From Octopus vulgaris (taxonomy: Eukaryota): DNA of 64,000 bases. A program made the position numbers and the translations under genes. Shown here piece after piece: positions 3,075 through 28,385 of this stretch. Location of the stretch: positions 24,118,001-24,182,000 of the forward strand of contig OX597832.1 in the NCBI GenBank assembly GCA_951406725.2, given 5' to 3'. Position 1 is the first letter of the stretch. The number at the start of each line of letters is the position of its first letter. The notes under the pieces were generated by a model that made no database searches, had not been told where the DNA came from, and saw nothing but the letters and a program-made list of their open reading frames with translations.

Positions 3075-3253
3075 CTTTATTTAAAGCAGCAGAAAATTCT
3101 ACAAAACCTGTTACTCTGAGTTTCGCATTGCCGTTCATCGGACAGTTTTTGCTAGAAAATTTTCTGCTGCTTTAAATAAAGCATATTACTCTACCACTGG
3201 TATTTGAGTACTCTTTTTTTCCACCTTGTTTCGCATTTATGTGTTTACTCTGG

Positions 3254-3255
<2 letters not shown>
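3075..3255. mobile_element. Short fold-back element in (TA)n, probably Penelope-like-derived
   Basis: 24-bp inverted repeat ctttatttaaagcagcagaaaatt (3075-3098) / aattttctgctgctttaaataaag (3158-3181), (TA)n on both sides, hammerhead-like core inside. Confidence 0.6.
3108..3145 (-). ncRNA. Type I hammerhead ribozyme-like motif (U4C variant, weak stem II)
   Basis: Minus strand: ctgt-CCGATGA-acg gcaa tgc-GAAA-ctcagag-TA-acag. Stem I is ctgt/acag; stem III is quasi-palindromic ACTCAGAGT. Confidence 0.5.
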
Positions 3256-3309
<54 letters not shown>

Positions 3310-3356
3310 GTTAGCCACTACACACATTTTTTTCTCTCCTTATTTTTTCTGTGTCC

Positions 3357-3392
3357 CTTTCTGTAGAAGAGTGTAGGCTCGAAACGTAAAAG
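3357..3392 (+). ncRNA. Minimal type I hammerhead-like motif (PLE type, A6U change)
   Basis: cttt-CTGTAGA-A-gagt gtag gctc-GAAA-CG-TA-aaag. Stem I is cttt/aaag and stem III is palindromic ACGT. Lies in a ~170-bp element between (GA)n and (TA)n. Confidence 0.5.
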
Positions 3393-3676
3393 ACTTTTTC
3401 TATTTCTGAGCATTATACTAATACATGTTTGTTTTGTACACCACCTGTCTTCGTCTTTTGTTTTTTTCATAAACTTTCCCTATATATATATGTATATACG
3501 CACACACTCACACACATCTTTTGATATCTCTCATTTGTAAATATCAGTATTTATGTGTGTTGTATAATTGTTTTATTCTTTTCTTTTAATCAGAGAGATT
3601 TTTAGATTTGTGATTTACACTATTTGTTATATTTTTAAAATTAATTTTTTTTCTTTTTTCCCCTTTTCTATTTCAG

Positions 3677-3818
3677 TACATTCCTTTACCTGAAGTTTTT
3701 TATGGTTTGGGCTTTAGTTGTAATGGCTGACTTCATGTTGGAATTTCGATTTGAATATCTGTGGCCATTTTGGTTATTGCTAAGGAGTGTGTATGATTCA
3801 TTCAAATATCAAGGCCTG
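3677..3818 (+). CDS. MACO1: Macoilin coding exon A (first exon visible in the window; N-terminal transmembrane region)
   Basis: Polypyrimidine tract + tttcag| acceptor and ctg|gtaagt donor. Translates TFLYLKFFMVWALVVMADFMLEFRFEYLWPFWLLLRSVYDSFKYQGL, recognisable as the macoilin/TMEM57 N-terminus. Not in the ORF track. Confidence 0.96.
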
Positions 3819-4134
3819 GTAAGTAGATTACAGTTTTAAAAATCAAATCTCCTTCAAGACTTATTAGTCTTTTTTATGATTAAGCACATAAATGCCGTTA
3901 TATGAATTTTTGCTTGAAGATTGTGGTGCCATGAAACCCAAGTTGCGAGACAAACTCCCAGATTTACAGAAAAAAAAATGTGTGTGTGTAAGGCGGTGCT
4001 CCAGCATGGCTGCAGTCAAATGACTGAAACAAGTAATAGAATAAAAGAAAGAAATATGTAGGTGCAGGTGGGGTTGGGTGGTAAGAAGCCAAAAAGGAGA
4101 TTGGGTGGTAAGAAGCTTCTTTTTTTTTTTTTTG

Positions 4135-6195
4135 TTCTTTATTGCCCACAAGGGGCTAAACATAGAGGGGACAAACAAGGACAGACAAAGGAATTAAGTC
4201 GATTACATCGAGCCCCGTACATAACTGGTATTTATTTAATCGACCGCGAAAGGATGAAAGGCAAAGTCGACCTCAGCAGAATTTGAACTCAGAACGTAAC
4301 GGCAGACGAAATACCTATTTCTTTACTACCCACAAGGGGCTAAACATAGAGGGGACAAACAAGGACAGACAAGGAATTAAGTCGATTACATCGAGCCCCC
4401 GTGCATAACTGGTACTTAATTAATCGACCCTGAAAGGATGAAAGGCAAAGTCGACCTCAGCGGAATTTGAACTCAGAACGTAACGGCAGACGAAATACCT
4501 ATTTCTTTACTACCCACAAGGGGCTAAACATAGAGGGGACAAACAAGGACAGACAAAGGAATTAAGTCGATTACATTGACCCCCGTGCATAACTGGTACT
4601 TAATTAATCGACCCCGTAAGGATGAAAGGCAAAGTCGACCTCGGCGGAATTTGAACTCAGAACGTAACGGCAGACGAAATACCTATTTCTTTACTACCCA
4701 CAAGGGGCTAAACATAGAGGGGACAAACAAGGACAGACAAAGGAATTAAGTCGATTACATTGACCCCCGTGCATAACTGGTACTTATTTAATCGACTCCG
4801 AAAGGATGAAAGGCAAAGTTGACCTCAGCTGAATTTGAACTCAGAACGTAACGGCAGACGAAATACCTATTTCTTTACTACCCACAAGGGGCTAAACATA
4901 GAGGGGACAAACAAGGACAGACAAAGGAATTAAGTCGATTACATTGACCCCCGTGCATAACTGGTACTTATTTAATCGACCCCGAAAGGATGAAAGGCAA
5001 AGTTGACCTCAGCGGAATTTGAACTCGGAACGTAGCAGCAAACGAAATACCTATTTCTTTACTACCCACAAGGGGCTAAACATAGAGGGGACAAACAAGG
5101 ACAGACAAAGGAATTAAGTCGATTACATCGACCCCTGTGCATAACTGGTACTTATTTAATCGACCCCGAAAGGATGAAAGGCAAAGTCGACCTCAGCTGA
5201 ATTTGAAATCATCACGTAACGGCAGACGAAATACCTATTTCTTTACTACCCACAAGGGGCTAAACATAGAGGGGACAGACAAAGGAATTAAGTCGATTAC
5301 ATTGACCCCCGTGCATAACTGGTACTTATTTAATCGACCCCGAAAGGATGAAAGGCAAAGTTGACCTCAGCGGAATTTGAACTCGGAACATAACGCAGCA
5401 AACGAAATACCTATTTCTTTACTACCCACAAGGGGCTAAACATAGAGGGGACAAACAAGGACAGACAAAGGAATTAAGTCGATTACATTGACCCCCGTGC
5501 ATAACTGGTACTTATTTAATCGACCCCGAAAGGATGAAAGGCAAAGTTGACCTCAGCTGAATTTGAACTCAGAACGTAGCGACAGAACGAAATACCTATT
5601 TCTTTACTACCCACAAGGGGCTAAACATAGAGGGGACAAACAAGGACAGACAAAGGAATTAAGTCGATTACATTGACCCCCGTGCATAACTGGTACTTAT
5701 TTAATCGACCCCGAAAGGATGAAAGGCAAAGTCGACCTCAGCTGAATTTGAACTCAGAACGTAGCGACAGAAGAAATACCTATTTCTTTACTACCCACAA
5801 GGGGCTAAACATAGAGGGGACAAACAAGGACAGACAAAGGAATTAAGTCGATTATGTCAACCCTTGTGCATAACTGCTACTTATTTAATCGACCCCGAAA
5901 GGATGAAAGGCAAAGTTGACCTCAGCGGAATTTGAACTCGGAACATAGCAGCAAACGAAATACCTATTTCTTTACTACCCACAAGGGGCTAAACATAAAG
6001 GGGACAAACAAGGACAGACAAAGGAATTAAGTCGATTACATTGACCCCCGTGCATAACTGCTACTTATTTAATCGACCCCGAAAGGATGAAAGGCAAAGT
6101 CGACCTCAGCGGAATTTGAACTCAGAACGTAACGGCAGACGAAATACCGCTAAGCATCTCGCCCGGCGTGCTAACGATTCTGCCAGCTCGCCGCC
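4135..6195 (-). repeat. Tandem array of SINE family B: one 5' head + 11 bodies of ~184 bp
   Basis: Unit starts near 4135, 4313, 4498, 4682, 4866, 5050, 5234, 5410, 5595, 5779 and 5963. The single tRNA-like head (reverse complement of ggcggcgagctggcagaatcgttagcacgccgggcg) is at ~6150-6195. Confidence 0.93.
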
Positions 6196-6719
6196 CTTAC
6201 CACCCAGCCACACCTGCACCTATACATATTTTTTTCTTTTAATCTTTTACTTGTTTCAGTCATTTGACTACAGCCATGCTGGAGCACCACCTTACATACA
6301 CACACACACACATATTCTCAGAACTGTGAAAATAAAATGAAAACCAGATATTGTTGATGTATTTCATGTCATTTTCTCCATTACCATTATTTATCAAAAG
6401 AGGTTGATTAAGATTGACAAGTAAATTAATTTAATAATAGATAGATTGTGAAAGCATAATTAAGATTATTTTGATTGCTTGCTCCAAAAATATTCATGAG
6501 GCATCAAAAAATTAATCATAATTTAGCTGTAATAGAAATATCACATTTTTGTCTTTTTGTAGTGGAAAATATAGTTTGACTGATAGAAACAGAAATATTT
6601 TTAAAGAATTTTTTTATAAAGTAATTTTATATTAGATTTCGATATTAAAATTTTCAAAATCTTGTCAGCGTGGAAAGTGGATATAAAGATTGTGATGATG
6701 GCTGCTGCTGCTTGTTTGT

Positions 6720-7040
6720 TTGTTTGTTTGTTGAGCGAAGCAGTTTTCGTCCCAGAGAGGGAGAAGTCCGAAACATGGTCCTTTGCTATTCATAAGACCC
6801 ACAGAAGAGAAAGCAGGTCAACCCCCCGACACCGAGAGCATCGACGGATGGATGAATGCGCATCCAGGCTCAGCGGTTGCATATGAAGTCAGGGACAAGA
6901 AACAGGAAGAAAGAGTGAGGGAAAGTTGGGGCGAAAGAGTACAACAGGGGTCGCCACCACCCCCTGCCGGAGCCTCGTGGAGCTTTAGGTGTTTTCGCTC
7001 AATAAACACACACAACACCTGGTCTGGGAATTGAAACCGC
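6720..7040 (-). mobile_element. SINE family D (gagcgaaaacacctaaagctccacg body), partial
   Basis: Same body as the copies at ~16900-17285 (+) and ~26710-27010 (+). Confidence 0.7.
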
Positions 7041-8049
7041 CGGGCATGGCTTGTAGGCACGGGCATGGCTGTGTGGTTAGGGAGCTTGCTTCCTAGCTAC
7101 ATGGTTTCAGGTTCAGTCCCACTGCGCGGCACTTTAGGCAGGTGTCTTCCACTATAGCCCCAAGCCGACCGGAGCTTTGTGATTGAATTCGGTAGGTGGA
7201 AGTTACTGCCGTGTGTGTATGTGTGCGTATAGCTGCTCAGTGCCTTTCCGAAAGAGAGAGAGGGGAATCCTTCGACCGCGAGTTCATTGCCCTAACCATT
7301 GGGCCATTGTGCCTCCACAGCTGCTGCTGCTCTTTGTCTTCTTTGCCTCCTTATTGAAAAAAGGAATGGTTTATTTGCTGGTTGAGAAGTTATGTTGATA
7401 ATGAAACTGAAGGTGCTGTCATTGCTGAGAGGGATGAGGTGACGAAGTAGCATATCAAAGGGGTGATGGCAAGTGTTTGGTCCTCTGTGTTGTGGACACT
7501 GAAATCCTCTTCCTTAATGGCTTCAATTTTCACAACCCTTCTTAATACTTGCACATCTAATATGATAACAAGGCTGACGATTTTGAGGGGACGAGCAGGT
7601 CAATTACATCAACCCCAGTGCATAACCAGTACTTTGTTTTATTGATCCTCAAAAGCATGAAAGGCAAAGTTGATCTTGATAGGATTTGAACTCCTAGCAT
7701 AAAGAGCCAAAGCAAATACCACAAAGCATATTTCCTGAAAAATATATAACAATAATAATAATAACAATAATAATGGTTTCAAATTTTGGCACAAAGCCAG
7801 CAGTTTCAGGGAGGGGGTTAAGTCAATTACATCAACCCCAGTACTCAACTGGTACTAATTTTATCAGCCTTGAAAGGATAAAAGGCAAAGTCAACCTTGG
7901 CAGATTTTGAACTCAGAATGTAGAGGTTGACAGAATGCTGCTAAGCATTTTGCCTGGTGTACTAATGGTTCTGCCAGCTCACCACCTTAACGATGGTGAT
8001 GACGACGACTATGACACACACAGACACATGAAATAATTTCAATAAAATG

Positions 8050-9325
8050 TGTACCATCCGAACGTGGTTGATGCCAGCACTGCCATGACTGGCTTCTGTG
8101 CCAGTGGCATGTAAAAAGTACCAACCGATCGTGGCCGCTGCCAGCCTCCCCTGGCACCTGTGCCGGTGGCACGTAAAAAGCACCACCCGATCGTGGCCGC
8201 TGCCAGCCTCCCCTGGCACCTGTGCCGGTGGCACATAAAAAGCACCAACCGATCATGACCACTGCCAGCCTCCCCTGGCACCTGTGCCGGTGGCACGTAA
8301 AAAGTACCAACCGATCGTGGCCGCTGCCAGCCTCCCCTGGCACCTGTGCCGGTGGCACATAAAAAGCACCAACCGATCATGACCACTGCCAGCCTCCCCT
8401 GGCACCTGTGCCGGTGGAACGTAAAAAGCACCAGCCGATCGTGGCCGCTGCCAGCCTCCCCTGGCACCTGTGCCGGTGGCACGTAAAAAGCACCAGCCGA
8501 TCGTGGCCGCTGCCAGCCTCCCCTGGCACCTGTGCCGGTGGCACGTAAAAGCACCACCCGATCGTGGCCGCTGCCAGCCTCCCCTGGCACCTGTGCCGGT
8601 GGCACGTAAAAAGCACCACCCGATCGTGGCCGCTGCCAGCCTCCCCTGGCACCTGTGCCGGTGGCACATAAAAAGCACCAACCGATCATGACCACTGCCA
8701 GCCTCCCCTGGCACCTGTGCCGGTGGCACGTAAAAAGCACCAACCGATCGTGGCCGCTGCCAGCCTCCCCTGGCACCTGTGCCGGTGGCACATAAAAAGC
8801 ACCAACCGATCGTGGCCGCTGCCAGCCTCCCCTGGCACCTGTGCCGGTGGAACGTAAAAAGCACCAGCCGATCGTGGCCGCTTCCAGCCTCCCCTGGCAC
8901 CTGTGCCGGTGGCACGTAAAAAGCACCAGCCGATCGTGGCCGCTGCCAGCCTCCCCTGGCACCTGTGCCGGTGGCACGTAAAAAGCACCACCCGATCGTG
9001 GCCGCTGCCAGCCTCCCCTGGCACCTGTGCCGGTGGCACGTAAAAAGCACCACCCGATCGTGGCCGCTGCCAGCCTCCCCTGGCACGTAAAAAGTACCAC
9101 CCGATCGTGGCCGCTGCCAGCCTCCCCTGGCACCTGTGCCAGTGGCATATAAAAAGCACCAACTACACTCACAGAGTGGTTGGCGTTAGGAAAGGTATCC
9201 AGCTGTAGAAACATTGCCAGATCAGACTGGAGCCTGGTGCAGCCTCCTGGCTTCCCAGACCCCGGTCGAACCGTCCAACCCATGCTAGCATGGAAAACGG
9301 ACGTTAAACGATGATGATGATGATG
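8050..9325 (+). repeat. RTE 3'-end copy containing a 62-bp tandem array (~17 units)
   Basis: Unit ctggcacctgtgccggtggcacgtaaaaagcaccacccgatcgtggccgctgccagcctccc, period 62 (8151 to 8213), followed by the ggttggcgttaggaa...gatgatgat tail. Explains the long repetitive ORFs here. Confidence 0.92.
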
Positions 9326-9459
9326 TACCAGTTATACAATGTTGGTCCAGTCTATTGCTGTAAGCTATACATCTTTTCCTAGTATTCACATATGCCGGGT
9401 ACTATTCTGTATGAAGTGTTCAGGAGGTGAAGCATCTTGGCTGTTGCTACCAATTATAA

Positions 9460-9880
9460 GGCGCAGGAGTGGCTGTGTGGTAAGTAGCTTGCTAACCAAC
9501 CGCATGGTTCCGGGTTCAGTCCCACTGCGTGGCATCTTGAGCAAGTGTCTTCTGCTATAGCCCTGGGCCGACCAATGCCTTGGGAGTGGATTTGGTAGAC
9601 GGAAACTGAAAGAAGCCTGTCGTATATATGTATATATATATATGTATGTGTGTGTATGTTTTTGTGTGTCTGTGTTTGTCCCCCTAGCATTGCTTGTCAA
9701 CCGACGATGCTGGTGTGTTTATGTCCCCGTTACTTAGCGGTTCGGCAAAAAGAGAACGATAGAATAAGTACTGGGCTTAGAAAAAGAATAACTCCCGGGG
9801 TCGATTTGCTCGACTAAAAGGCGGTGCTCCAGCATGGCCGCAGTGAAATGACTGAAACAAGTAAAAGAGTAAAAAGAGTA
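9460..9880 (+). mobile_element. SINE family A (tRNA-derived head ggagtggctgtgtggtaag..., internal TA/TG microsatellite), full length
   Basis: A-box-like tggctgtgtgg, B-box-like ggttcagtccc, 3' end gactgaaacaagtaaaagag; many near-identical copies in the window. Confidence 0.9.
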
Positions 9881-10194
9881 GCATAAGCATGGATAGAGAC
9901 ATAATTATGCCATATAAAGAAGTATTGATGTCCATTTGAATCCAGTGTACTTTTGGTCCTTGTATTGTGAACCGTGGAGCAATAAACAACAAAATCCAGC
10001 TAATTAGGATAGGATTTGAATGCAGAGCCCTCGAGGTTTTTATGTTGTATTCATCCCATCGATCCAGTTCAACCCGGCATTCTATTGTGTCAATTACATA
10101 CATTATATCCAAATAGAGACAGATATTGTTGGTCGTCTTAAGCAAGCTCTTTATTCAGCGCTGTTTATCTGTAACCTTGGTAACATTCCTCCCA

Positions 10195-10233
<39 letters not shown>

Positions 10234-10705
10234 TGCATAAAACTTGAAGATGGGGGAAAAAAAATGTATAAAATTATTATTAATGATTAGTTTTATGAAT
10301 TCTGCAAGTAATGAAGGGATTAGGAGATAATTTCATTCTTACCGTTCCAGAAAATTTTTGCTGTCACTTGAACAAAGCTTTTTCCCCCCAGGGTACATGA
10401 CAATATAAATGCATTCTTCTAATATTCTTCATCTGTTAATTGTTATAATGCGCATCAGCATTGAGAATTCTCATCTTATATCATACATCCAGGTGTGATA
10501 ATAAAATAAAATGAAAATGAAATGAAATGAAATAAGAAACCCTGCAAGATATTTGACAAATATTAGCAAATTGAATTTGGTAATATTGCAGATCTTTTGT
10601 GTAAAAGACTGACTGTTTGTTAGTTTTGTTGAATGGGAAGGTGGGGAAAATAATCAAGCTAGATTCCAAGTTTCCAAGTGTTGCTTGTGAACATCACGAA
10701 TGAAC

Positions 10706-10922
10706 TCTTTACTCTTTTACTTGTTTCTGTCATTTGACTGCGGCCATGCTGGAGCACCGCCTTTAGTCGAGCAACTCGACCCCGGGACTTATTCTTTTGT
10801 AAGCCCAGTACTTATTCTATCAGTCTCTTTTGCCGAACTGCTAAGTGACAGGGACGTAAACACACCAGCATCGTCGGTTGTCAAGCAATGCTAGGGGGAC
10901 AAACACAGACACACACACGCAT

Positions 10923-10955
<33 letters not shown>

Positions 10956-11119
10956 CGACGGGCTTCTTTCAGTTTCCGTCTACCAAATCCACTCACAAGG
11001 CTTTGGTCGGCCCGAGGCTATAGTAGAAGACACTTGCCCAAGGTGTCACGCAGTGGGACTGAACCCGGAACCATGTGGTTGGTTAGCAAGCTACTTACCA
11101 CACAGCCACTCCTGCGCCT
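10706..11119 (-). mobile_element. SINE family A, full length
   Basis: Reverse complement of the 9460-9880 consensus; flanked by a ~120-bp direct duplication. Confidence 0.9.
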
Positions 11120-11492
11120 ATATATTGCAGATATTTTGTGTAAAAGACTGGCTGTTTGTTAGTTTTGTTCAATGGGAAGGTGGGGAAATAATCAAGCTAG
11201 ATTCCAAGTTTCAAAGTGTTGCTTGTGAACATCATGAATGAACGTGTGAAACTGGAGCAGATGTGGCTGTGTGGTTAAGGAACTTGTTTCCCGACTGTGT
11301 AGTCTTAGGTTCGGCCCCACTGTGTAGCACCTTAAGAAAGTTGTTCTCTGCTATAGCCCTGAGCCACTGAAAGCCTTGCAAGTAGATCAGGTAGACAGAA
11401 ACTGAGTGGGTGCCCATCATGTATGTGTGTGTGTGTCGGGCAGTGTGTTGTGTTCTTGAGCAAGACACTTTATATATATATATATATATATA

Positions 11493-11910
11493 TAAAATTT
11501 AGATTCAGATGAATATGGTACTTAAGTTGAGGCACCAGAATTTAGTATGGGTATTATCCATACAATTTCAAAATAAGGTGATTAAAATCAAAATAAGCAA
11601 CAAGGATATCCAGAGATAATGCAGTACGATCGTTTCATGCGACTCCATTTAATTGAACAATGCAATCATTTCATTACATCAATTTAAAATGTAGAGCAAT
11701 CTTCAGCTGCACAAAGACATAGAATTTAATGAAATTAGAAGGACACATTAGTTTAATTTTACCCAAAATCTCCAAGAAAAATGACTGCACTGTAGATTGC
11801 TCTACATTTTAAATTGATGTAATGAAATGATTGCATTCTTCAATTAAATGGAGTTGCATGAAAAGATCATAATGCATTACCTCTGGATATTTTTGTTGCT
11901 TATTTTGATT
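11493..11910. mobile_element. Fold-back element in (TA)n with ~117-bp inverted arms, PLE-like
   Basis: 11587-11703 is the imperfect reverse complement of 11793-11910; (TA)n on both sides; each arm holds a hammerhead core. Confidence 0.7.
11619..11712 (-). ncRNA. Type I hammerhead ribozyme with long stem II and palindromic loop III
   Basis: Minus strand: GTGCAG-CTGAAGA-[63-nt hairpin ttgctctacattt...aaatggagtcgcat]-GAAA-C-GATC-G-TA-CTGCAT. Intact CUGANGA/GAAA/UH core and 6-bp stem I; positions 10.1-11.1 are U.U rather than Watson-Crick. Confidence 0.7.
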
Positions 11911-11924
11911 ATATATATATATAT

Positions 11925-12286
11925 AATTCATAAATGAGGGCAAAGGAAAAAAATTCTAATGCCAAATATGCCGAAAAATTGGACATATTGTCCATTAACC
12001 ATATAATTTTTTCACAATACGCACGCTACTCGGAAAAAGGTCGACAGTAAGTATCTCATTTACTTCTTTGCCACATGTATCACTGACGAAGAGAGGTCTC
12101 TTAGTAGCTAACTCTGAAATCTGTCCGATATGGTAATAATGGAATTTTTTAGAATTTTTTTCCTTTGCCCTCATTTATGAATTGTTTATAAATTTAACCG
12201 TTAAAGGTATTTTTTAATATGCTGGCCATTGATAAAAATTTTTTCGAGAAAATATTTTTTTTTGAAAAGAATTTTATCCTCACATT

Positions 12287-12287
<1 letters not shown>
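11925..12287. mobile_element. Second fold-back element family in (TA)n, PLE-like
   Basis: Inverted repeat aattcataaatgagggcaaaggaaaaaaattctaa (~11925-11958) / ttagaattttttttcctttgccctcatttatgaatt (~12149-12183); hammerhead-like core at 12076-12132. Confidence 0.65.
12076..12132 (+). ncRNA. Degenerate type I hammerhead-like motif
   Basis: tgtatca-CTGACGA-agag...ttagtagctaa ctct-GAAA-tct-GTC-cgatatg. Stem II is closed by agag/ctct; stem I tgtatc/gatatg has a mismatch next to the core. Confidence 0.5.
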
Positions 12288-12343
<56 letters not shown>

Positions 12344-12379
12344 CATTGTGTATATATGTGTAATGTATGTATCTGTGTA

Positions 12380-12710
12380 AAGGTGAAGTGGTTAATGCAT
12401 CAGGTTTACAATCATGTGGTAGTGAGTTCGAATCCCAGACCAGGCTGTGTGTTGTGTCCTTGAGCAAGACACTTTATTTCACGTTGCTCCAGTTCACTCA
12501 GATTTGGAAAATGAGTTGCAAAGTCACAGGTGCCAAGCTGTATCAGCCCCTTTGCCTTTCCCTTGGATAACATCAGTGGTGTGGAGAGGAGAGACTTGTA
12601 TGCATGAGTGACTGATGGTCTTCCATAAACAACCTTGCCCGGACTTGTGTCTCAGAGGGGAACTTTCCAGGTGCAATCCCATGGTTATTCATGACCAAAG
12701 GGGATCTTTA
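12380..12710 (+). mobile_element. SINE family E (tRNA head + gtgtccttgagcaagacac core)
   Basis: Head gtggttaatgcatcagg...gagttcgaatccc; a related copy lies on the - strand at ~24565-24745. Confidence 0.7.
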
Positions 12711-12736
12711 CCATTATTATTATTATTATTATTATT

Positions 12737-13232: not shown

Positions 13233-13270
13233 ATGATTATTACTACTACTACTACTAGGACGACAATGAC

Positions 13271-13301
<31 letters not shown>

Positions 13302-13975: not shown

Positions 13976-14372
13976 TCTTTATATATAAAAGTGAGGTTGT
14001 GTGCTGTCTGTCTCCTACGATTTAGATTCCTAACTACTCCCACATTTTGTGGTGCAGTGTAACCAAAAGCGGGTATCTTATAGTCGAGATTCATATCGAG
14101 CCCTTCTGGGTATTAGCGCGCGTCTACGATGAGTCTACGATTTAAAAAAAAATTTACCATCATTTTTTCCTATTTTTAATGCATTTTTTGCTATTATATA
14201 AGGGAAGTAACTCTCTAAAAATGTATTATTAAATCTCAGAACGTAAAAAGCTACAGTAACACCCCCCCTTTGTGGTTAGCCATATTGAGATGGCTATTAT
14301 ACTTTACATCTCTAAAAATGCTTATATAGTTATTTCCCTTACAAACCCGAGCAACGCTGGGCGATACTGCTA

Positions 14373-14373
<1 letters not shown>
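13976..14373 (+). mobile_element. Non-autonomous Helitron
   Basis: A|TC 5' end (tctttatatataaaag), subterminal hairpin cccgagcaacgctggg, CTAG|T 3' end, no TSD; a homologous copy lies at 50345-50651 (-). Confidence 0.8.
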
Positions 14374-14406
<33 letters not shown>

Positions 14407-14734
14407 TAGCATTATGACCCGTCGTTGCCGGGTCATAGTGCTAGTAGTAACTAAAATCTCCCTTCAGCTTTAAATAAATGAAGGACACATTAAATACACT
14501 ATAGTTACTGTAGTTTGATCATGATGTCTGTTTGGCTACCTAGCAATTCGGTTTCAAGTCTACACTACAAATAACCCCATCCTGGTTCTTTTGCCTGAAA
14601 CAAACTTCTCGTTTTAAGTTGATCCTAATTAAAACCCTCCATAGAAATTTCATGTTAATTTACATTTCAAATACTAGGTTAATAATAAGAAAGTTATTTT
14701 ACTAAATTTTTTATTATTTTATTATTATAGAAGT

Positions 14735-15100: not shown

Positions 15101-16069
15101 ATGTTATTGAGACTTATGTTGCTGTTGTTTAGGCTCAGATCAGCCTTGATTCAGCACACTAATGACCAAAGGCTTTCCAGACATGGCCAGGCAGTCTTTT
15201 TTTTTTTTTTTTCTGTCCAACCATAGTATATCTGCAATATAAAAGCACCCCGGTGTCATGCAAATGGCACCCGTTCCAGTGGCATGTAAAAGCACCCATT
15301 ACACTCTCGGAGTGGTTGGCATCAGGAAGGGCATCCAGCTATAGAAAACCATGCCAAATCAGACTGGAGTCTGGTGCAGCCTCCCAGCTTACCAGCCCCA
15401 CCAGTCAAACCGTCAAACCCATGCCAGCATGGACAACAGATGTTAGATGATGATGATGATGATTTATCCAACGTGTCCTTCCTTCCTTCGTTTTTCTTTT
15501 TTTTAACAGTAGTGTGTAATCTCAGGGAGATTCAGTTACTATTCCTAGCAGGTCGAGCGACCACATAGACACTCCTTCATTGTTTGCTGTATGTAATAAT
15601 GGTTTCAATTTGAAGAATTAGATCTGATGTTCAGCCAACCGTGAAGTAATGAAGATAGTATTACTTTCCTTGACATAACACAATGGCGAGAATCTTGTTA
15701 TATTGATGAGAAAATATTTCTGTACCCTCCCCACCACCACCCATTATGGTAGGTGTAAGGAATTTTAGACTAAATGAAGTGTCTTTTGTAATTATAACGA
15801 TTCCATATATAGATATTCTGCGTTTATCACCGAAGCCTGATGAGAGCATTGGGTGGATGGGGATGAAAGGGGCCCATCTTGTGTTTTATTAGGCGCAGAC
15901 ATGGCTGTGTGGTAAGAAGCTTGCTTCCGAAACACTTGGTTCTGGGTTCAGTCCCACTGTGTGGCACCTTGGGCGAGTGTCTTCTAATATAGCCTCAGGC
16001 CAACCAAAGCCTCGTGAGTGGATTTGGTACATGGAAACTGAAAGAAGCCTGCCATATATATATATACTA

Positions 16070-16291
16070 CTAATATAGGATGAAGTGTTTTTTACAGAAA
16101 AAAATTCCATCAAAAAATGTGGCAGCATATTAAAATACCTTCACGGTTAAAATTATAAACAACTTATAAATAAGGGCTAAAGAAAATTATTTCAATGCCA
16201 ATATGCTGATAACAGACTTTTAAATCGTCAATTTCCACATATTATTTACTCGCTAAATAATATGCTTTTTTAGCCCTTATTTATAAGTTGT
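16070..16291. mobile_element. Fold-back element in (TA)n related to 11925-12287 (opposite orientation)
   Basis: Inverted repeat acaacttataaataagggctaaa / tttagcccttatttataagttgt; shares cagcatattaaaatacctt..cggttaaa.ttataaacaa with the reverse complement of 12182-12227. Confidence 0.65.
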
Positions 16292-17315: not shown

Positions 17316-17725
17316 AGGAGTTGCTGTGTGGTAAGTAGCTTGCTTACCAACCACATGGTTCGGGTTCAGTCCCGCTGCGTGGCATCTCAGGCAAGTGTCT
17401 TCTGCTATAGCCTTGGACCGACCAATGCCTTGTGAGTGGTTTTGGTAGATGGAAACTGAAAGAAGCCTGTCGTATATATGTATATGTATATATATATATA
17501 TGTATGTGTGTATATGTTTGTGTGTCTGTGTTTGTCCCCCAAACATCGCTTGACAACCGATGTTGGTGTGTTTACGTCCCCGTCACTTAGCGGTTCGGCA
17601 AAATGGACTGATAGAATAAGTACTGGGCTTACAAAGAATAAGTCCCGGGGGTCGATTTGCTCGACTAAAGGCGGTGCTCCAGCATGGCCGCAGTCAAATG
17701 ACTGAAACGAGTAAAAGAGTAAAGA
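17316..17725 (+). mobile_element. SINE family A, full length
   Basis: Matches the family A consensus. Confidence 0.9.
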
Positions 17726-20117: not shown

Positions 20118-20338
20118 CCCTTTCGTTACCAACCCAGCTGAAACTGGTTCTGGCTCTGAGTACAAATGTCTTGTTTTCCTAACTTTTGAATTAAAATCTT
20201 CCACCAAACCTTAGTCACAATTTATGTTCCTAACACTAGCTGAATGATAACTAAGTTATTTTACTAAATTCTTTGTTATACTCAAAATTAATTTAAAGAA
20301 GCATAGAGCATCTCAAAATAAATATGGTAATGAAAGGG
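20118..20338. mobile_element. piggyBac-type MITE
   Basis: TTAA target duplication (20114-20117, 20339-20342); TIRs ccctttcgttacca / tggtaatgaaaggg; fragments of the same family near 32170, 42750-42944 and 48385. Confidence 0.85.
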
Positions 20339-20563
20339 TTAATGCCGGTTTTCCATGCTGGCATGGGCTGGCTGGCTGGTTTAATAGGGTCCAGTGAGTC
20401 AAGGGGCTGCATTAAGCTCCAATGTCTGCTTTGGCACTGTTTCTATGGCTGGATGTCTTTCCTAACACTGACCACTTTACAGAATATACAAATAGCTTTT
20501 TTTAACAGGAAAAAGGAAAAACCACCTCATCTAAATTGGTAGTGGTGGTGCTATTTGAGTGAT

Positions 20564-20794
20564 GGCGGCGAGCTGGCAGAAACGTTAGCACGCCAGGCGT
20601 AATGCTTACTGGTATTTCATCTGCCATTACGTTCTGAGTTCAAATTCCGCCGAGGTCGACTTTGCCTTTCATCCTTTCGGGGTCGATAAATTAAGTACCA
20701 GTTACGCACTGGGGTCGATGTAATCGACTTAATCCCTTTGTCTGTCGTTGTTTGTCCTCTCTGTGTTTAGCCCCCTGTGGGTAGTAAAGAAATA
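20564..20794 (+). mobile_element. SINE family B monomer with TSD
   Basis: Runs ggcggcgagctggcag to gtaaagaaata, with a 14-bp TSD gctatttgagtgat at 20550-20563 and 20795-20808. Confidence 0.92.
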
Positions 20795-20929
20795 GCTATT
20801 TGAGTGATGGTTCTATGCCAGGGATTGTGAAAGAGGGACAAGGACCAGATGCCTTGCTACAGGGGAGATACAAGGGTGCACACCATGTTATATAAGGGGG
20901 TTAGTAGGAGTAGCTGGAACGAAGAGTAC

Positions 20930-21785
20930 CGCCAATGTTTTATTAGCAGTTTATGTTGCTAAAGCAACATATGGAAATTTCAAGAAATAAATCAATGGCA
21001 ATAAAGAACATTTTATCGTAGAATGGTCCAGTATAGTCGATATCAATTTGCTTCTATGGTCCAGCTGGTTTCGACTATTCCTTGTAATGTTTATCAAGCA
21101 AATTTGCAATTGATTGGTATGCTGGACATGATTTGATTATTGCAACTCTATCAAACTGTATTTTCGGTCAGTTGTCGTATCTACAGCTTCTGCGACTCGC
21201 TTGTTTCCTCCAGGCCATGCCTCGGTGGCCTTTATGCGGTCGGGTCAAAATTTATTTCGTAATACTTGCAGAATAATTACTCTAGGAAAACTGTACTGCA
21301 AGATTAATAAATTCGTTAGATAATTAATTGCCTCACATTTTATCCAATGCTCTCTCAGTTGTTTCTCATTTATTATATAATTGTTTTTTGTTTTGGGGGT
21401 TGTTGTTTTGTTTTTTTTTTTCTTTTCTGGCCAACCATTATCAATAAATTGTCTAATTCAAAGAATATTGACATCGGACTTCATGACTGATTCAGTTTCT
21501 TTAGTGACGTCTGGCTTTCCCTGAAGACTTTCATCAATAATTTGATGTATTTTTTAAAAATCTTATATAGAAAACGATTTTTACGATCATTGTCAAAATC
21601 ATAATCAAGTCCAGTCAGCAATCTTGATAATTCATCAACATTTTTGTGTTGCTTCAAAGCATCTTGTCATACTGTGTCATACAACAGCCACCCCTAAACC
21701 CCTTATAACATCCAATATTGCAGCTGCTGAGATCTAAATACTTGTATATATTTTTATTATTCGGTGACAATATGTAAATTAGCAG
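20930..21785 (-). pseudogene. Ty3/Gypsy pol relic (RNase H C-terminal end + integrase)
   Basis: Minus-strand fragments HKNVDELSRLL (cf. NADALSRLP), HKGHRGMA (HHCC zinc-finger start), IIKSCPAYQ and P*KQIDIDYTGPFYDKMFFIAID (cf. IHIDYAGPF); contains stops and frameshifts. Confidence 0.75.
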
Positions 21786-21789
21786 GCTT

Positions 21790-22235
21790 CCATGCCGGTG
21801 GCACGTAAAAGGGCACCATTTGAGCGTGATCATTACCAATGTCGCCTTACTTGCACCTGTGCCGGTGGCACGTGTAAAAGGATTTGAGCGAGGCCGTTGC
21901 CAGTATCGCCTGACTGGCCCCCATGCCGTGGCACATAAAAGGGCACCATTCGAGCATGATCGTTACCAACGTTGCCTTACTGGCATGTGTAAAAGGATTC
22001 GAATGAGGTCATTGCCAGTACCGCCTGACTGGCCCCCATGCTGGTGGCACGTAAAAAGCACCCACTACACTCTCGGAGTGGTTGGCATTAGGAAGGGCAT
22101 CAAGCTGTAGAAACTCTGCCAGATCAAGACTGGAGCTTGGTGCAGCCATCTGGTTCGCCAGCCCTCAGTCAAAATCATCCAACCCATGCTAGCATGGAAA
22201 GCGGACGTTAAACGATGATGATGATGACGATGATG
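21790..22235 (+). mobile_element. RTE 3'-end copy ending in (GAT)n
   Basis: Repeated gccggtggcacgtaaaa modules, ggttggcattaggaagggcatc, gttaaacgatgatgat tail. Confidence 0.8.
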
Positions 22236-22559
22236 GTTGGTGGTGGTTAATTCAAAATGTCATTCATATGTAGAAATTGATTAATTAAACTAATGAAGAT
22301 GGATTATTATAAATAATTTCTCTTTTATCTATTTGCAAATATCACCCTTAATGTGTATTCAGTGTTTTCGCCGTTTGAGCCATTGGACGTTAAACATCAT
22401 TTCCACATTGTGACAGAACCGCTCCAATACTGTTTGGCAATACATCTACAGCAAAAGTTAATGGCAAAATTTCATTGTGATGCACATACTCTGTGGCCTT
22501 AATCCCTAGTTTCAACTCCTCACAACTTTATCGATAATCATCCAACTATTTGGATGGTA

Positions 22560-23545
22560 TCTACCTTTTCGTTTGATTATATAGCAACACAGTAAGGACT
22601 ACCGTGATCTTGTTGTATGATAACACCTGAATTTTGAAATGAATGATTACGTTACTTTCCATTTCATTGTGTGGCTGTGCAAGAAGGCTTAGCATGTTCT
22701 TAATGATTGTACGATAACATCTGACTTTTGAAACAAATGCTTATAGGCATAGGAGTGGCTGTGTGGTAAGTAGCTTGCTTACGAACCGCATGGTTCCGGG
22801 TTCAGTCTTCTACTATAGCCTCAGGCTGATCAAAGCCTTGTGAGTGGATTTGGTAGACGGAAACTGAAAGAAGCCATCATATGTGTGTATATATATATAT
22901 ATGTGTGTCTGTGGTTGTCCCCCAATGTCACTTGACAACCGATGCTGGTGTGTTTACATCCCCGTAACTTAGTGGTTCAGCAAAAGAGCACGATAGAATA
23001 AGTACTAGGCTTACAAAGAATGGGATCGATTTACAAAGTCCTGGGATCGATTTGCTCAACTAAACGCGGTGCTCCAACATAGCTACGGCCAAATGACTGA
23101 AATAAGTAAAAGAGTATTTAAGGCAATATGATCCTTTTCATTTAGTTATATATGACAGCATAGTGAGGTCTGCTTTGTTGTTAATGAATATATAACATCT
23201 GACTTTTGAAATGAATGCTAATATTTCAGGCAATAAAATCCTCTTCATTTAATTATATGACAGCATAATAAGATCTGTTATATTTTTAATGACTGTATAA
23301 CATTGAATTTTTGAAAGAAATGCTAACAGTTTAGGCAATACAATCCTTTTCATTTAATTACATGACAGCATAATAAAATCTACTATATGCTTAATGAATT
23401 TATAACATCTGATTTTTGAATGCTAATATTTTGGGCAGTACAGTCCTTTTTGATTAATTATATGGCAGTGCAGTAACGGTTACCATGTTCTTAATGAATG
23501 TGTGTTAACGTCTAAATTTTGAAACAAATGCTAATTTTTCATTTG
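22560..23545 (+). repeat. Old ~105-bp minisatellite (~6 units) interrupted by a family A SINE at 22748-23115
   Basis: Recurring ...ataacatctgacttttgaaa(t/c)gaatgcta... with aggcaata at ~23121, 23228, 23333 and ggcagta at ~23434; two diverged units lie upstream of the SINE. Confidence 0.75.
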
Positions 23546-24159
23546 CATATTTTGGAATTGGTAATTTTTTTTTAATAGCACCGGAATTTTTCCAAGATAA
23601 TCGTTTAGCCAGATGCACTAATAATATAGCTGAGATAATCCATATCTCTGCAAACAAAATTCGTGTTTGTCTTTATGACATTTTAAGCAGTAATTCATTT
23701 GTCTCCAGTTGTTGTTGTTGTTGCTGTTGTTGTCACTGCTGTTTTATCTCCTCACACCAGGTTAAACCTGATCAAAGGGGGTTATGATCAAAGTATTCCA
23801 ACCACGATGCTTCCTGCCTTTTCTTCAGTTTAGTGTATCTGTGGACACATCGCCCGTTAAGACAATGGGGTGTGTAGTTTGATCGATTGAGATTTGGGTT
23901 TTTATTTCTAGCAGATCAACCAACCACATAGGGGTTCACTCATTCATGTAAAATATTACAATTTGATGACAATACTTGTAGATAGCCACCAAACTGGATG
24001 GGTCCAGTTCTCTCTTCTCTCCTTTTCCCTTTCTCCCTCTTGCCCTCCACCCCCCACTCATCTCTTTCCCCATCTCCCTCCTCCATCTTCCTTCCCCTAT
24101 CTCCCTCCTGCTTTGTCTCCTTCCTCCTTTCTTTCTCTCTCCTTCATTGTCATCTATAT

Positions 24160-24492
24160 TTATTTCTTTACTACTCACAAGGGGCTAAACATAGAGGGGA
24201 CAAACAAGGACAGACAAAGGGATTAAGTCGATTACATCGACCTCAGTGCGAACTGGTACTTTATTTATCGACCCCAGTGCGAACTGGTACTTTATTTATC
24301 GACCCCAGTGCAAACTGGTACTTTATTTATCGACCCCAGTGCGAACTGGTACTTTATTTATCAACCCCAGTGCGAACTGGTACTTTATTTATCGACCCCG
24401 AAAGGATGAAAGGCAAAGTCGACCTCGGCGGAATTTGAACTCAGAACGTTATGACAGACGAAATACCACTAAGCATTTCGCCCGGTGTGCTC
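24160..24492 (-). mobile_element. SINE family B with an internal 31-bp tandem expansion (5 units)
   Basis: cgaccccagtgcgaactggtactttatttat repeated over 24238-24395. Confidence 0.85.
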
Positions 24493-25700
24493 TCCCTTTC
24501 TCTCTTTCTCCTTCTCTTCCTTCCTCACTCTCTCTCCATTACATAACATGCTAGAACTTAATGTTATCCAAGGGAAAGACAAAGGGGCCAATACAGCTTG
24601 GCACCAGTAATGTCACAACTGGAGCAACGTGAAATATAAAGTGTCTTGCTCAAGAACACAACATGCAACCCGGTCCGGGAATCGAACTCACAACCTCACG
24701 ATCATAAGCTGGACACTCTAACCGCTGAGCCATGCACCTTCACAGTATTCTTTTATTCCCAACAATAAATATACATGCATATAACACATATACACATACA
24801 TACATGCCTGCAACAGTTGATTATGCAACATATGGTGTATAATGCATCACCTAATTAATTTCTGTTTGTTTTACCCCTTTTCTATTGTTAATGAGTTTCA
24901 TGTTAAAAGCACTATTATAATTAGTACCATTATCTGACTTGACATTTAATGCCACTAAAAGTAGACGTCACATTAGCATTTCATACTAGTCCTCCTTGGA
25001 GTATCATACGTCACTTTGTTTAAAATTGTAAAAATGGATATTGTTGGAACATGAATAAATTTAATTTAATTGTCAAACTTGTAGATTGTAAATTCACTAA
25101 TTAAATTATTTTTTAATATTTTTACATGCTTTTCTGTGCTGTGAGGGGAGTTAGATGAATATATGTAGTTGAGATATTGTTTTTACAGCTGGATACCCTT
25201 CCTGTTGTTAACCCTTCTTTTCCAAATAAGGGATCTCTTATTCCACACATCTTCAGAAGTACAAAGCCAGTAGTCTTTGTTGATATGGAAACAGCAATAA
25301 ACATCACTGCTTGTGGCTTGCTGGCTTTCCATGTGAAGTGTGGTTTCCATCTACCAAATTCATTCACAAGGCATTGGTCAGCCCAGGGCTATAGTAGAAA
25401 GACACTTACCCGAGGTGCTGCAGCATGGGACTGAACTATAAGTTCTGTGGTTGAGAAGCAAACTTCTTAACCATACATCCATGCCTGTGCTTTTAGGCAC
25501 ATTGTTAAATTATCATCATCATCATCATCATCATCGTTTGATGTCTGTTTTCTGTGCTGGTAGAGATTGGAGGTTTGTCAGGAGCCGGCAGGACCAGGAG
25601 CTGTCCAGATTCCATTGTTCTGTTTTGGCATGGTTTCTACAACTGGATGCCCTTTCTAGTGCCAGCCATTTTACCATGTATTGATGGCTTTTTACTTAAA

Positions 25701-26049
25701 TCTCTCTATATATAAACGGCAAAATGTCTGTCTGTCTGTATGTGTGTCCTTTATACAAATCCACAATTTTTCAGCTCGCACTTTCTATGGTCATTCAAAA
25801 CCATCCAAGGGTGGTCGTGCACATCTTTACATTTCCCCAGTCACCCTGCAAAGCCATTAAAAAATCAATAGAAGTGACTTTTCTTGTGAATTTTCTATCC
25901 AAAACCCAATCAAAATGCCCGAAACTTGATACACTAATTGAATGCCAGCTAGCTGTATGTGATTGGTCAGAGATTTGGACAGTACTCGTGTGTATGTGCG
26001 CATGCATGCATTAACACTATGACCCAGCGTTGCCAGGTCATAGTGCTAG
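25701..26049 (+). mobile_element. Non-autonomous Helitron (second family)
   Basis: A|TCTCTCTATATATAAA 5' end; gacccagcgttgccaggtc hairpin; CTAG|T 3' end. Confidence 0.75.
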
Positions 26050-26709
26050 TATACAAGAAAAATAAAAGCTCAAAATTTTATGCATGCTGCACCTCTCATG
26101 TGTCCATAGCTTACTCTTGGTATTTTTAAAAAATCTTTTATAGAATACGATTTTTACGATCATTGTCAAAATCATAATCAAGTCCAGTCAGCGATCTTGA
26201 TAATTCATCAACATTTTTGTGTTGCTTCAAAGCTTCTTGTCACACTGTGTATTTGTACAACAGCCACCCCTAAACTCCTTTTAACATTATTCAATATTGC
26301 AGCTGCTGAGATCTAAATACTTGTATATATTTTTTATTATTCAGTGACAATATGTAAATTAGCAGGCTTCCGTGCCGGTGACACGTAAATGGGCATTATT
26401 CAAGCGTGGTTAATATTGTGGAAGGTGTACTTTTGTTGATGATACTTATGATAGTGATTCCAGCACTGGTGGCAGCAGAGAGTTGTGTGCTTAAGGGCCA
26501 GCAGATACTCCCGTTCTTATCTTCCTTGTATTCATACTCTTTATTGTAGAACATTTTGCCAATGTGGTTAAAAAGTTTGCTCCCAATTCAACTACGTGGC
26601 ACCTCAACTAGATGTCTCCTGCTATAAACTTGGGCTGATTGAAGCCTTATGCATGGATTTGGTAAACAGAAACTGAAAGTAACCTGTCTTATGTGTATAT
26701 GTCTTTGAG

Positions 26710-27010
26710 TGGAGGCACATGGCCTAGTGGTTAGAGCAGCAGACTCGTGGTCGAGGGATCGCCGGTTCGAATCTCAGACCGGACGATGTGTGTGTTTATG
26801 AGCGAAACACCTAAGCTCCACGTGGCTCCAGCAGAAGGTAACGGTGAACTTCTGCTGACTCTTTCGCCACAACTTTCTCTCACTCTTTCCTCCTGCATCT
26901 TGCAGCTCACCTGCGACGGACCGGCGACCCGTCAAGGTGGGGAACATGTACGCCAAGGAAACCGGAAAACCGGCCCTTATGAGCCAGGCATGGCTTGAGA
27001 AGGAACAAAC
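26710..27010 (+). mobile_element. SINE family D with a clear tRNA-derived head
   Basis: A-box tggcctagtgg and B-box ggttcgaatct, followed by the gagcgaaacacctaagctccacg body. Confidence 0.8.
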
Positions 27011-27969
27011 ATGTCTTTGTGTGTGTGTATGTACACGCACACACACATCTGCACACACATATTCAGTTTCTTGTATACATACACACACATTCAGTTTCCA
27101 GGCTTAGATTGATTGGGGCTATAGCGCATAGAGAAATTATTATTTCTTAAATACTATTTCCCTCCAGCTATTTGACTGAAGTACAAACTCATTCTATAAA
27201 ATTGTATAAATATGTTTATTCCGTGTCATAGCTGTATATATTTAGTCTGCCATGTACCATTCTATACAGATTTATTCTGAGTATTTGACAAAAAAAAAAA
27301 ACCCAAAAAAACATAAAATCAAATATTTCCACTTGTTACAAATACATTTACAATTCTAAATTATTTGCTAATAAATGACTTTAGTGGCCACCAGCAACTG
27401 TAATCAATTTTGGCTAGGCATCAGCTGTATCAATTACGCCAGTCTCAAAGATCCTGCAAAGATAATTGGCATTGCTCCTCTTTGTTTGACTAACATAAAA
27501 CAACAACAAAAAATACCATTGATTATTGGTATGTTGTTGTTATGTGTGTGTGTGTGAGAATCAATATATTGTTTCTGTTTTATACTTTGTATATAAAATG
27601 CGTAGCCCCTTTGATACCAACCTGCCTGGGACTGCTTTTGGTTCCATGATACGGTCTTCTTTTTAAGCGATGTAAATTGCTAGCTCCCATCAAAATTTCA
27701 CATTACCTTTTGATTGCCTCAGTCGTTGGACTGTGCCCATGCTGGAGCACTGCCTTCAAAGGTTTTGTTGAACAAATCACACCCAGTATTTTTTTTTTTT
27801 GTTAACCCTGGTACTTGTTCTAACAGTTTGCCTTTGCGAAACACTAAGTTATGGGGTCATAAACAAACCAAGACCGGTTATCAAGTAATGGTGGGGGGAT
27901 ACAATGAACAGAACACAAAGGCCACATATGTGTATTTATAAATACACACACATATACATATATATACAT

Positions 27970-28152
27970 ATTTATATAAATAAGGATAAGATTAATATTT
28001 AAATACCAATCTTATCAGGTGGCGAGCATGGGAATAAAAACCTTTCAAAGGTGATAATTATTTAAAATTATAATTTAGGGTATCTAAGGGATACCTCCAT
28101 GCTGGAAATAGCAGTCAAAACTTGACTCTAAAACCACATTAAATGTTTGAAC

Positions 28153-28195
<43 letters not shown>

Positions 28196-28350
28196 AAATT
28201 ATAATTTAGGGTATCTAAGGGATACCTCCATGCTGGAAATAGCAGTCAAAACCACATTAAATGTTTGAACATTTAATGTGGTTTTAGAGTCAAGTTTTGA
28301 CTGCTATTTCCAGCATGGAGGTATCCCTTAGATACCCTAAATTATAATTT

Positions 28351-28385
<35 letters not shown>
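27970..28385. mobile_element. Direct + inverted triplicated element in (TA)n
   Basis: Unit aaaattataatttagggtatctaaggg...aaatgtttgaacattt at 28064-28156, again at 28195-28274, and inverted at 28268-28351. Confidence 0.7.

What the first reader, a model, noticed from the sequence alone, without database searches (positions are those of the whole stretch)
3075..28385. A group of microsatellite-embedded, mostly fold-back mini-elements carrying hammerhead motifs, inside macoilin introns
Seen: six short non-coding elements of 170-420 bp (3075-3255, 3308-3480, 11493-11910, 11925-12287, 16070-16291, 27970-28385). All sit in or next to (TA)n tracts and five have partial inverted repeats. Four contain a CUGANGA...GAAA...UH-type core with pairable stems I and II and a tiny, mostly palindromic stem III. 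They belong to at least four different sequence families, so the architecture is shared rather than the sequence. Known: Penelope-like elements carry minimal type I hammerheads in their pseudo-LTRs, which often occur as inverted/tandem partial copies; metazoan non-LTR retrozymes are thought to depend on PLEs. Inference: these are diverse non-autonomous PLE-mobilised elements with a preference for (TA)n, placing potential self-cleaving and dsRNA-forming modules in introns on both strands. I cannot tell from this window whether they have been described.
Basis: partly seen in the sequence, partly recalled or inferred. Interest (0 to 1): 0.8.

Follow-up and report, generated by a model that had tools for sequence, protein, structure and literature searches.

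The report
Penelope retrotransposon ends with hammerhead motifs
These six short repeats in the introns of an octopus macoilin gene are likely the cut-off tail ends of Penelope-like jumping genes, which are already known to land in TA repeats, leave head-to-head inverted copies and carry a hammerhead ribozyme motif, so the pattern is real but ordinary.

Summary
Six elements sit in (TA)n within Octopus macoilin introns, five fold back, and four (E1-E4) carry type I hammerhead motifs above chance; E5 and E6 carry none. Each fold-back is two 5'-truncated copies joined head to head, with a 3' 'tail' on one copy only: the published signature of Penelope-like element (PLE) insertions. The E1, E3 and E4 motifs have the form tabulated for Hydra-clade PLEs (26 of 27 families prefer (TA)n; one is from Octopus); E1 shares a 17-nt motif with one. 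Public contigs show E3 and E4 are families of very roughly 10^4 copies with intact cores and one matched compensatory pair in E4 helix II. No autonomous partner was found, so truncated ends versus dedicated non-autonomous elements stays open; I favour truncated ends. Self-cleavage in macoilin pre-mRNA is unlikely; long dsRNA hairpins are predicted. Two oddities remain: a 63-nt helix II in the E3 family, and E4's two arms coming from different high-copy variants, hinting at two RNA templates in one insertion (n=1).

The parts
3075..3150 (-). E1 tail-less copy: hammerhead (core 3141-3135 with U4 read as C, helix II only 2 bp, stem III near-palindrome, cleavage position 3112) and 37 nt to the end at (TA)8
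3151..3253 (+). E1 tailed copy, truncated below the hammerhead; tail about 3187-3253; ends at (TA)13
3308..3480 (+). E2 single copy: minimal hammerhead (core 3361-3367 with A6 read as U, 4-bp helix II, one-pair helix III, cleavage position 3388); 3' end at (TA)5, 5' side at (GA)n
11495..11778 (-). E3 tailed main copy: perfect core 11706-11700, 6-bp helix I, 63-nt helix II domain, 8-nt palindromic helix III, cleavage position 11626; acceptor-like polypyrimidine tract and AG directly before the core; tail 11495-11582
11785..11909 (+). E3 tail-less inverted copy with decayed hammerhead (A6U, helix III broken); 124-nt arm, 92% complementary to the main copy
11926..12047 (-). E4 tail-less copy of a different high-copy variant ('A type'): shares the last 48 nt with the main copy, only remnants of the hammerhead region
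12048..12288 (+). E4 tailed main copy ('B type'): perfect core 12083-12089, helix II 12090-12115, cleavage position 12125, A.C mismatch at the first pair of helix I; tail about 12194-12288
16067..16290 (-). E5: tailed copy related to E4 (73%), truncated before any hammerhead, plus a short inverted + strand copy at about 16255-16290; sits in the TA tail of a SINE-like repeat
27970..28350 (.). E6: three near-identical copies (tailed minus copy 27970-28157, tail-less minus copy 28196-28267, tail-less plus copy 28258-28350), internal (TA)n, near-palindrome of 18 nt at the junction, no hammerhead; tail related to E4/E5
3677..3818 (+). macoilin exon (aa 27-75) separating E1/E2 from E3-E6
28789..28915 (+). 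next macoilin exon (aa about 76-117), closing the 25-kb intron

Best explanation
The six elements are likely the 3' ends (pseudo-LTR remnants) of Penelope-like retrotransposons, E1, E3 and E4 likely of the (TA)n-targeting Hydra clade, likely left by insertions that stopped after 40-290 nt. Inferred mechanism, from published PLE work: the element's GIY-YIG endonuclease nicks both strands of a (TA)n tract; reverse transcription starts at two sites in the element RNA, one just past the hammerhead and one 70-95 nt further on; both cDNAs stop early and join head to head, giving a fold-back with a tail on one arm only. Shown here: the head-to-head layout, the one-sided tail, the (TA)n flanks, the hammerhead motifs in E1-E4, and, for E3 and E4, high copy number, a fall of coverage towards the 5' side and variable inversion points. 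The hammerhead is a passenger that would need a same-strand twin to cleave; in macoilin pre-mRNA these copies are predicted to be inactive and to form long double-stranded hairpins.
For: (1) All five fold-backs have the layout described for PLEs: inverted 5'-truncated copy at the 5' end and a tail at one end only (PMC8557442 passages; PMC3846280 passages; tail = stretch between two RT start sites, PMC11167929). (2) Hydra-clade table: 26 of 27 families prefer (TA)n; one is from Octopus bimaculoides; Penelope-13_HM has an inverted truncated copy with hammerheads on both strands; 14 of 26 hammerhead rows have the U.U at the base of helix II seen in E3, and all have a 3-4 bp palindromic helix III as in E1, E3, E4. 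(3) A 17-nt motif from the Hydra-2_aMil hammerhead matches E1 exactly, once in the window, 0 of 100 shuffles. Tail-less ends lie 37 and 38 nt past the cleavage position in E1 and E3, against 36 nt in Hydra-1_Obim (my count). (4): 14,191 contigs of run X1 lie on E3+E4; summed depth falls from 1.66e6 just below the E3 hammerhead to 2.1e4 at its 5' end; homologous sequence runs on beyond the window copies (20 contigs at 11778, 27 at 12047); 4 listed strand-switch joints lie at four different places. (5) Family cores intact: the only listed variant in the E3 core is the free position N7 (13% X1, 64% X16); none listed in the E4 core; E4 helix II partners 12092 and 12113 change at 29.3% and 28.9% in X1 (A-U to G-C). 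(6) PLEs cover 6.83% of the O. vulgaris genome in 190 families, about 4.4 kb per 64 kb; the six elements total 1.7 kb. (7) Opposite-strand hammerhead pairs 100-700 bp apart were already reported as probable truncated PLEs (PMC4209133).
Against: No RT/GIY-YIG ORF was linked to any of these ends: no genome is held, protein searches with E2 and E4 translations found nothing, and short motifs of E1-E4 and E6 were absent from the published Naiad/Chlamys/Hydra consensus file (line breaks can hide a motif). None equals Hydra-1_Obim (by eye). Family data cover only 2 of 6 elements. The 20-fold fall in depth within about 55 nt upstream of the E3 core is steeper than gradual truncation and also fits short non-autonomous families. 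Linkage of the compensatory changes is not shown, and in run X12 they are 28% and 52%; 4 variant rows were not displayed. Raw-read run X22 laid only 13 reads from 1.9 Gb, which does not fit a 10^4-copy family and is unexplained. The tool warns that summed depth is no copy number. Tails of 67-95 nt are longer than the 30-40 nt usually quoted. E2 has the minimal hammerhead form and could belong to another clade; E5 and E6 are assigned only through similarity to E4.
Confidence: 0.8

Rival explanations
1. Dedicated non-autonomous, SINE-like PLE derivatives of about 200-300 nt with their own promoter, copied in trans by PLE proteins.
For: Depth falls 20-fold just upstream of the E3 core and 3-fold upstream of the E4 core; no ORF link found; only 336 near-full-length recent PLE insertions in O. 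vulgaris against 191 Mb of PLE sequence; the E4 'A type' is abundant without a foldable hammerhead.
Against: Contigs continue in homologous sequence beyond the window copies and differ among subfamilies upstream, which itself lowers depth (tables 5, 7); 5' ends in the window differ in length from copy to copy; heavy 5' truncation is normal for PLEs.
Confidence: 0.13
2. Non-LTR retrozymes: head-to-tail repeats with canonical type I hammerheads, expressed as circular RNAs.
For: Unit sizes overlap the 150-450 bp range and the motifs are type I (PMC7229834 passages).
Against: No head-to-tail hammerhead tandem in any element; copies are head to head; E5 and E6 lack the motif. The 2026 preprint defines retrozymes by two consecutive units with complete motifs.
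Confidence: 0.02
3. MITE or fold-back DNA transposons with TA target sites; hammerhead likeness incidental.
For: Inverted ends next to TA; E6 is a near-perfect hairpin without a hammerhead; a true terminal-inverted-repeat element lies at 62700-62933.
Against: Repeats are not terminal on the tailed side; arm lengths and inversion points vary; cores and helix II behave as conserved RNA structure; E2 has no inverted repeat.
Confidence: 0.04
4. Chance motifs in AT-rich repeats.
For: Rfam finds no hammerhead; the strict descriptor passes only E2; the graded descriptor was post hoc and expects 1.4 chance sites per window at score 8.
Against: 0-1 of 1000 shuffles per element, exact 17-nt match to a published PLE hammerhead, family-level conservation.
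Confidence: 0.01

Closest known systems
[quoted passage not shown] 2021, PMC8557442), including Hydra-1_Obim of Octopus bimaculoides, Hydra-2_Amil and Penelope-13_HM
   Same: (TA)n targets; hammerhead 36-97 nt from the 3' end; extra U before GAA; 3-4 bp palindromic helix III; inverted 5'-truncated copy with the motif on both strands; E1 shares a 17-nt motif with Hydra-2_aMil.
   Different: None of E1-E4 is Hydra-1_Obim; no ORF seen here; E3 has 63 nt between A9 and G12 against at most 26 nt in the 26 tabulated Hydra rows; E4 has an A.C mismatch at the first pair of helix I.
Minimal hammerheads of metazoan PLEs (Cervera and De la Pena 2014, PMC4209133)
   Same: E2 fits the consensus (U-rich lead-in, extra nt after A9, G10.1-C11.1, one-pair helix III); paired motifs on opposite strands; an intron acceptor abutting helix I as in D. 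virilis Penelope (E3).
   Different: E2 reads U at core position 6 in this copy; family state untested. Octopus is not among the rows of Fig. S3 that I read.
Poseidon PAc of Anolis (Frangieh et al. 2024, PMC11167929)
   Same: Supplies the likely mechanism: both strands cut at AT-rich DNA, two internal RT start sites bounding the tail, hammerhead not needed for insertion.
   Different: In PAc the ORF starts in helix II; no conserved ORF start was found in these tails.
Non-LTR retrozymes (PMC7229834; bioRxiv 10.64898/2026.07.22.740005)
   Same: Short, non-coding, type I hammerhead, PLE-related.
   Different: Retrozymes are head-to-tail tandems; these are head-to-head or single copies.

Membership tests
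EN+ Penelope-like elements | ORF with telomerase-like RT and GIY-YIG endonuclease attached to these ends | not testable with these tools
   No genome held; indirect protein searches empty.
EN+ Penelope-like elements | Inverted 5'-truncated copy joined head to head | tested here: met
   5 of 6 elements.
EN+ Penelope-like elements | Tail on one end only | tested here: met
   5 of 5 fold-backs, 67-95 nt; longer than the 30-40 nt quoted.
EN+ Penelope-like elements | Type I hammerhead near the 3' end, sense to the element | tested here: met
   4 of 6 elements; E5 and E6 not met.
EN+ Penelope-like elements | Variable 5' truncation across the family | tested here: inconclusive
   Depth gradient and run-on contigs for E3 and E4, but the fall is steep and contigs are short.
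Hydra clade | Protein motifs (RWK, DKT, CxCX5C linker, no CCHH) | not testable with these tools
   No ORF in hand.
Hydra clade | Insertion into (TA)n | tested here: met
   11 of 12 copy 3' ends in the window; genome-wide enrichment not measurable because the tool skipped repeats.
Hydra clade | Hammerhead form with 3-4 bp palindromic helix III | tested here: met
   E1, E3 and E4 family consensus; E2 not met (minimal form).
Non-LTR retrozymes | Head-to-tail tandem units each with a complete hammerhead | tested here: not met
   0 of 6 elements.
Non-LTR retrozymes | Expression as circular RNA | not testable with these tools
   Only contigs of guessed RNA runs were available.
MITEs | Terminal inverted repeats at both ends with fixed arms | tested here: not met
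   One arm is internal to a tail in each fold-back; inversion points vary.
Active hammerhead ribozyme | Self-cleavage | not testable with these tools
   Needs an assay; predicted helix pair probabilities are 0.0 in whole E2 and E4.

The most novel reading that the evidence does not exclude
E4 records a single PLE insertion primed from two different RNA molecules (a hammerhead-dead variant on one strand, a hammerhead-intact variant on the other), which would mean PLE fold-backs are made by a two-template, probably dimeric, complex rather than by self-priming on one RNA; and the E3 family is an unlisted hammerhead variant, with a 63-nt helix II and a splice acceptor directly before the core, present in roughly 10^4 copies in at least two differently labelled organisms (A and E).
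Probability: 0.3. Interest if true: 0.5.

Novelty: new member of a known kind. Interest (0 to 1): 0.25.

Why it matters
As a class the finding is known: PLE ends with hammerheads in (TA)n make up part of the 6.8% of the octopus genome assigned to PLEs. It matters modestly in three ways. It points to octopus PLE families whose ends are not in the consensus file I could search. The fold-backs are predicted to put 50-120 bp of dsRNA into host pre-mRNA, of interest in an animal with heavy A-to-I editing (editing: my background knowledge, not tested). And thousands of such two-armed insertions would allow a genome-only test of how PLE inversions form, which PMC8557442 names as an open question.

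Tried and rejected
Rfam scan: no hammerhead or twister among 115 matches. Own genome not held. Exact-motif scans of viral contigs (E2 motif) and metagenome contigs (E3 motif): 0 hits. Strict hammerhead descriptor: only E2 and a probable chance site at 7439; sites 7439 and 22523 rejected as within the null and without TA flanks or fold-back. Search for spurious proteins from E2 copies, to read the family state of core position 6: no candidates. Idea that the E4/E5/E6 tails encode the ORF start: frames not conserved between E4 and E5 and 0 hits among 1.84 billion proteins. Idea of a conserved hairpin in E4-left, E5, E6: z of -0.56, -1.75, -1.62 and a weak consensus fold, not supported. The E3 helix II domain alone is not unusually stable (45 of 500 and 22 of 200 shuffles). 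Octopus Naiad ends and Hydra-1_Obim do not match these elements. The O. vulgaris repeat paper's supplement gave only summary text in my search, no library. Earlier-findings look-ups by place and sequence were empty. Small-share runs were not used. No paper describing these particular Octopus families turned up in searches; Repbase and Dfam could not be searched, and bioRxiv supplements were closed.
Full report
Setting. The window holds most of a macoilin gene on the + strand. An internal exon is 100% identical to Octopus sinensis macoilin, and that protein maps to 11 exons from 3675 to 51700. E1 and E2 precede the exon for aa 27-75; E3-E6 lie in the following 25-kb intron. No whole genome is held, so family evidence comes from one laying of public runs on 11483-12298, which covers E3 and E4 only.

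Observation. The six elements, their TA flanks and five fold-backs are as described. Rfam sees no hammerhead. A strict descriptor passed only E2 and one other site. A graded one, written after inspection, ranks E3, E4, E1 and E2 at 1, 2, 3 and 5 of 224 candidates, each reached by at most 1 of 1000 shuffles; E5 and E6 have no motif. The elements fall into four unrelated groups: E1, E2, E3 and E4/E5/E6.

Anatomy. Reading each element in the direction of its hammerhead or its homology to E4, each fold-back is two copies of one 3' end joined head to head. One copy stops 37-68 nt past the cleavage position; the other runs 67-95 nt further. E6 has a third copy and an 18-nt near-palindrome at its junction. 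This is the PLE layout: 'an inverted 5'-truncated copy' and a tail at one end only (PMC8557442, passages), palindromes at inverted junctions (PMC3846280, passages), and a tail that equals the stretch between two internal RT start sites (PMC11167929, parts 1-2 of 4). Cervera and De la Pena already reported minimal hammerheads 100-700 bp apart on opposite strands and read them as truncated PLEs (PMC4209133, parts 1-2 of 4 and supplement parts 1-2 of 3).

Clade. Files S1 and S2 of PMC8557442 list 27 Hydra-clade families, 26 with (TA)n preference, one from O. bimaculoides, and one with an inverted truncated copy carrying the motif on both strands. Their hammerheads have a 3-4 bp palindromic helix III, and 14 of 26 rows have U opposite U at the base of helix II. 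E3 has exactly that; E4 has A opposite U there. A 17-nt motif spanning helix III, cleavage site and helix I of Hydra-2_aMil matches E1 exactly, and no shuffle of 100 gives a match; by eye a short stretch of the E1 tail also resembles the ends of Hydra-2_Amil and Hydra-2_Ajap. None of the four is Hydra-1_Obim. E2 has the one-pair helix III of the general minimal consensus. Clade membership rests on the RNA ends only; the defining protein motifs could not be tested.

Family data. In run X1, 14,191 contigs lie on the stretch, with summed depth up to 1.66e6 while single long contigs have depth 24-134. That suggests on the order of 10^4 copies, though the tool warns this is no copy number. The E3 family is also abundant in organism E (3.1e5), where E4 is nearly absent (at most 460). 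Of 40 listed variant rows (4 not shown), the only one in the E3 core is N7; none is in the E4 core or in the E3 helix III palindrome. The changes that spoil the right-arm motif of E3 at 11864 and 11838 are private (87% and 97% of depth differ). E4 positions 12092 and 12113, partners in helix II, change at 29.3% and 28.9% (A-U to G-C); in X12 the figures are 28% and 52%, and linkage is not shown. In E3, 11638 changes in 27% and 24%, and the loose-end consensus of X16 carries the compensating letter at 11698, but that of X1 does not. The majority letter at 12122 makes E4 helix III self-complementary with two G-U pairs. Depth falls towards the 5' side, contigs run on past the window copies, and strand-switch joints lie at four different places. 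Against this, raw-read run X22 laid only 13 reads, which I cannot explain, and the fall upstream of the E3 core is steep enough to fit short non-autonomous families.

How it likely works. Inferred from PAc and the PLE literature: a PLE protein nicks (TA)n on both strands, primes two cDNAs from two start sites, both stop early, and repair joins their 5'-truncated ends. The hammerhead lies in the copied region but is not needed for insertion in vitro. With a palindromic helix III it needs a same-strand twin; published minimal motifs showed no monomer cleavage, although an axolotl motif with a U.U base cleaved 22% as a monomer (PMC7229834, passages). On the macoilin strand the motifs are E2 (U at position 6), the decayed E3 arm, and E4 (A.C at the first pair of helix I, no variant listed). 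Their helices have pair probabilities of 0.0 in the folded whole E2 and E4, while the fold-backs give predicted hairpins of -54 to -205 kcal/mol. So dsRNA is likely and cleavage unlikely; neither is tested.

What is left over. E3 has 63 nt between A9 and G12, against at most 26 in the Hydra table, and an acceptor-like tract ending in AG directly before C3, as with the D. virilis intron end. E4's arms share only their last 48 nt; upstream, each is an abundant variant in its own right (2.5-4.2e5 and 2.3-3.7e5), and the left one keeps weak remnants of the hammerhead region (3 of 2000 shuffles) without its stems. Two templates in one insertion would explain this, but a second insertion or later conversion could too, and it is one case.

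Comparison and verdict. These work like, and probably are, PLE 3' ends; they fail the tandem criterion for retrozymes (preprint 10.64898/2026.07.22.740005, part 1 of 5; PMC7229834) and the terminal-repeat criterion for MITEs. With PLEs at 6.83% of the O. vulgaris genome (PMC13282606, passages and supplement search), 1.7 kb of such pieces in 64 kb is expected. I found no paper on these particular families, but Repbase and Dfam were out of reach. Verdict: real, new members of a known kind, interest 0.25.

Noticed in passing
window 62700-62933: 234-bp element with 60-bp terminal inverted repeats at 97% between TA dinucleotides, no hammerhead; looks like a mariner-type MITE (type recalled, not tested).
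   Followed up: partly
window 14340-14440: A (TA)16 tract flanked by short inverted sequences, each with a small GC-rich hairpin; possibly two Helitron-like ends facing each other (label recalled).
   Followed up: no
window 41874-42377: Two nested pairs of inverted repeats (69 bp at 90%, 35 bp at 97%) around a SINE-like insert, with telomere-like short repeats.
   Followed up: no
window 3340-3367: E2 carries a long polypyrimidine tract ending in TAG inside the hammerhead core, on the macoilin strand: a possible cryptic splice acceptor.
   Followed up: no
window 40089-40394 (-): Fragment of a mariner-type transposase (Pfam Transposase_1, E 1e-21) in a macoilin intron.
   Followed up: partly
window 4133-6304 and 8051-9334: Long tandem arrays of repeat-derived units inside the 25-kb intron.
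   Followed up: no
window 28900-29800: About 900 bp of trinucleotide repeat right after a macoilin exon, partly duplicated.
   Followed up: no
window 11926-12288: The E4 family is abundant in organism A but nearly absent from organism E, while E3 is abundant in both: a lineage-specific burst.
   Followed up: partly
run X22, laid on window 11483-12298: Only 13 reads from 1.9 Gb of a run with the same species label lay on two very high-copy repeats; mislabelling or filtering possible.
   Followed up: no
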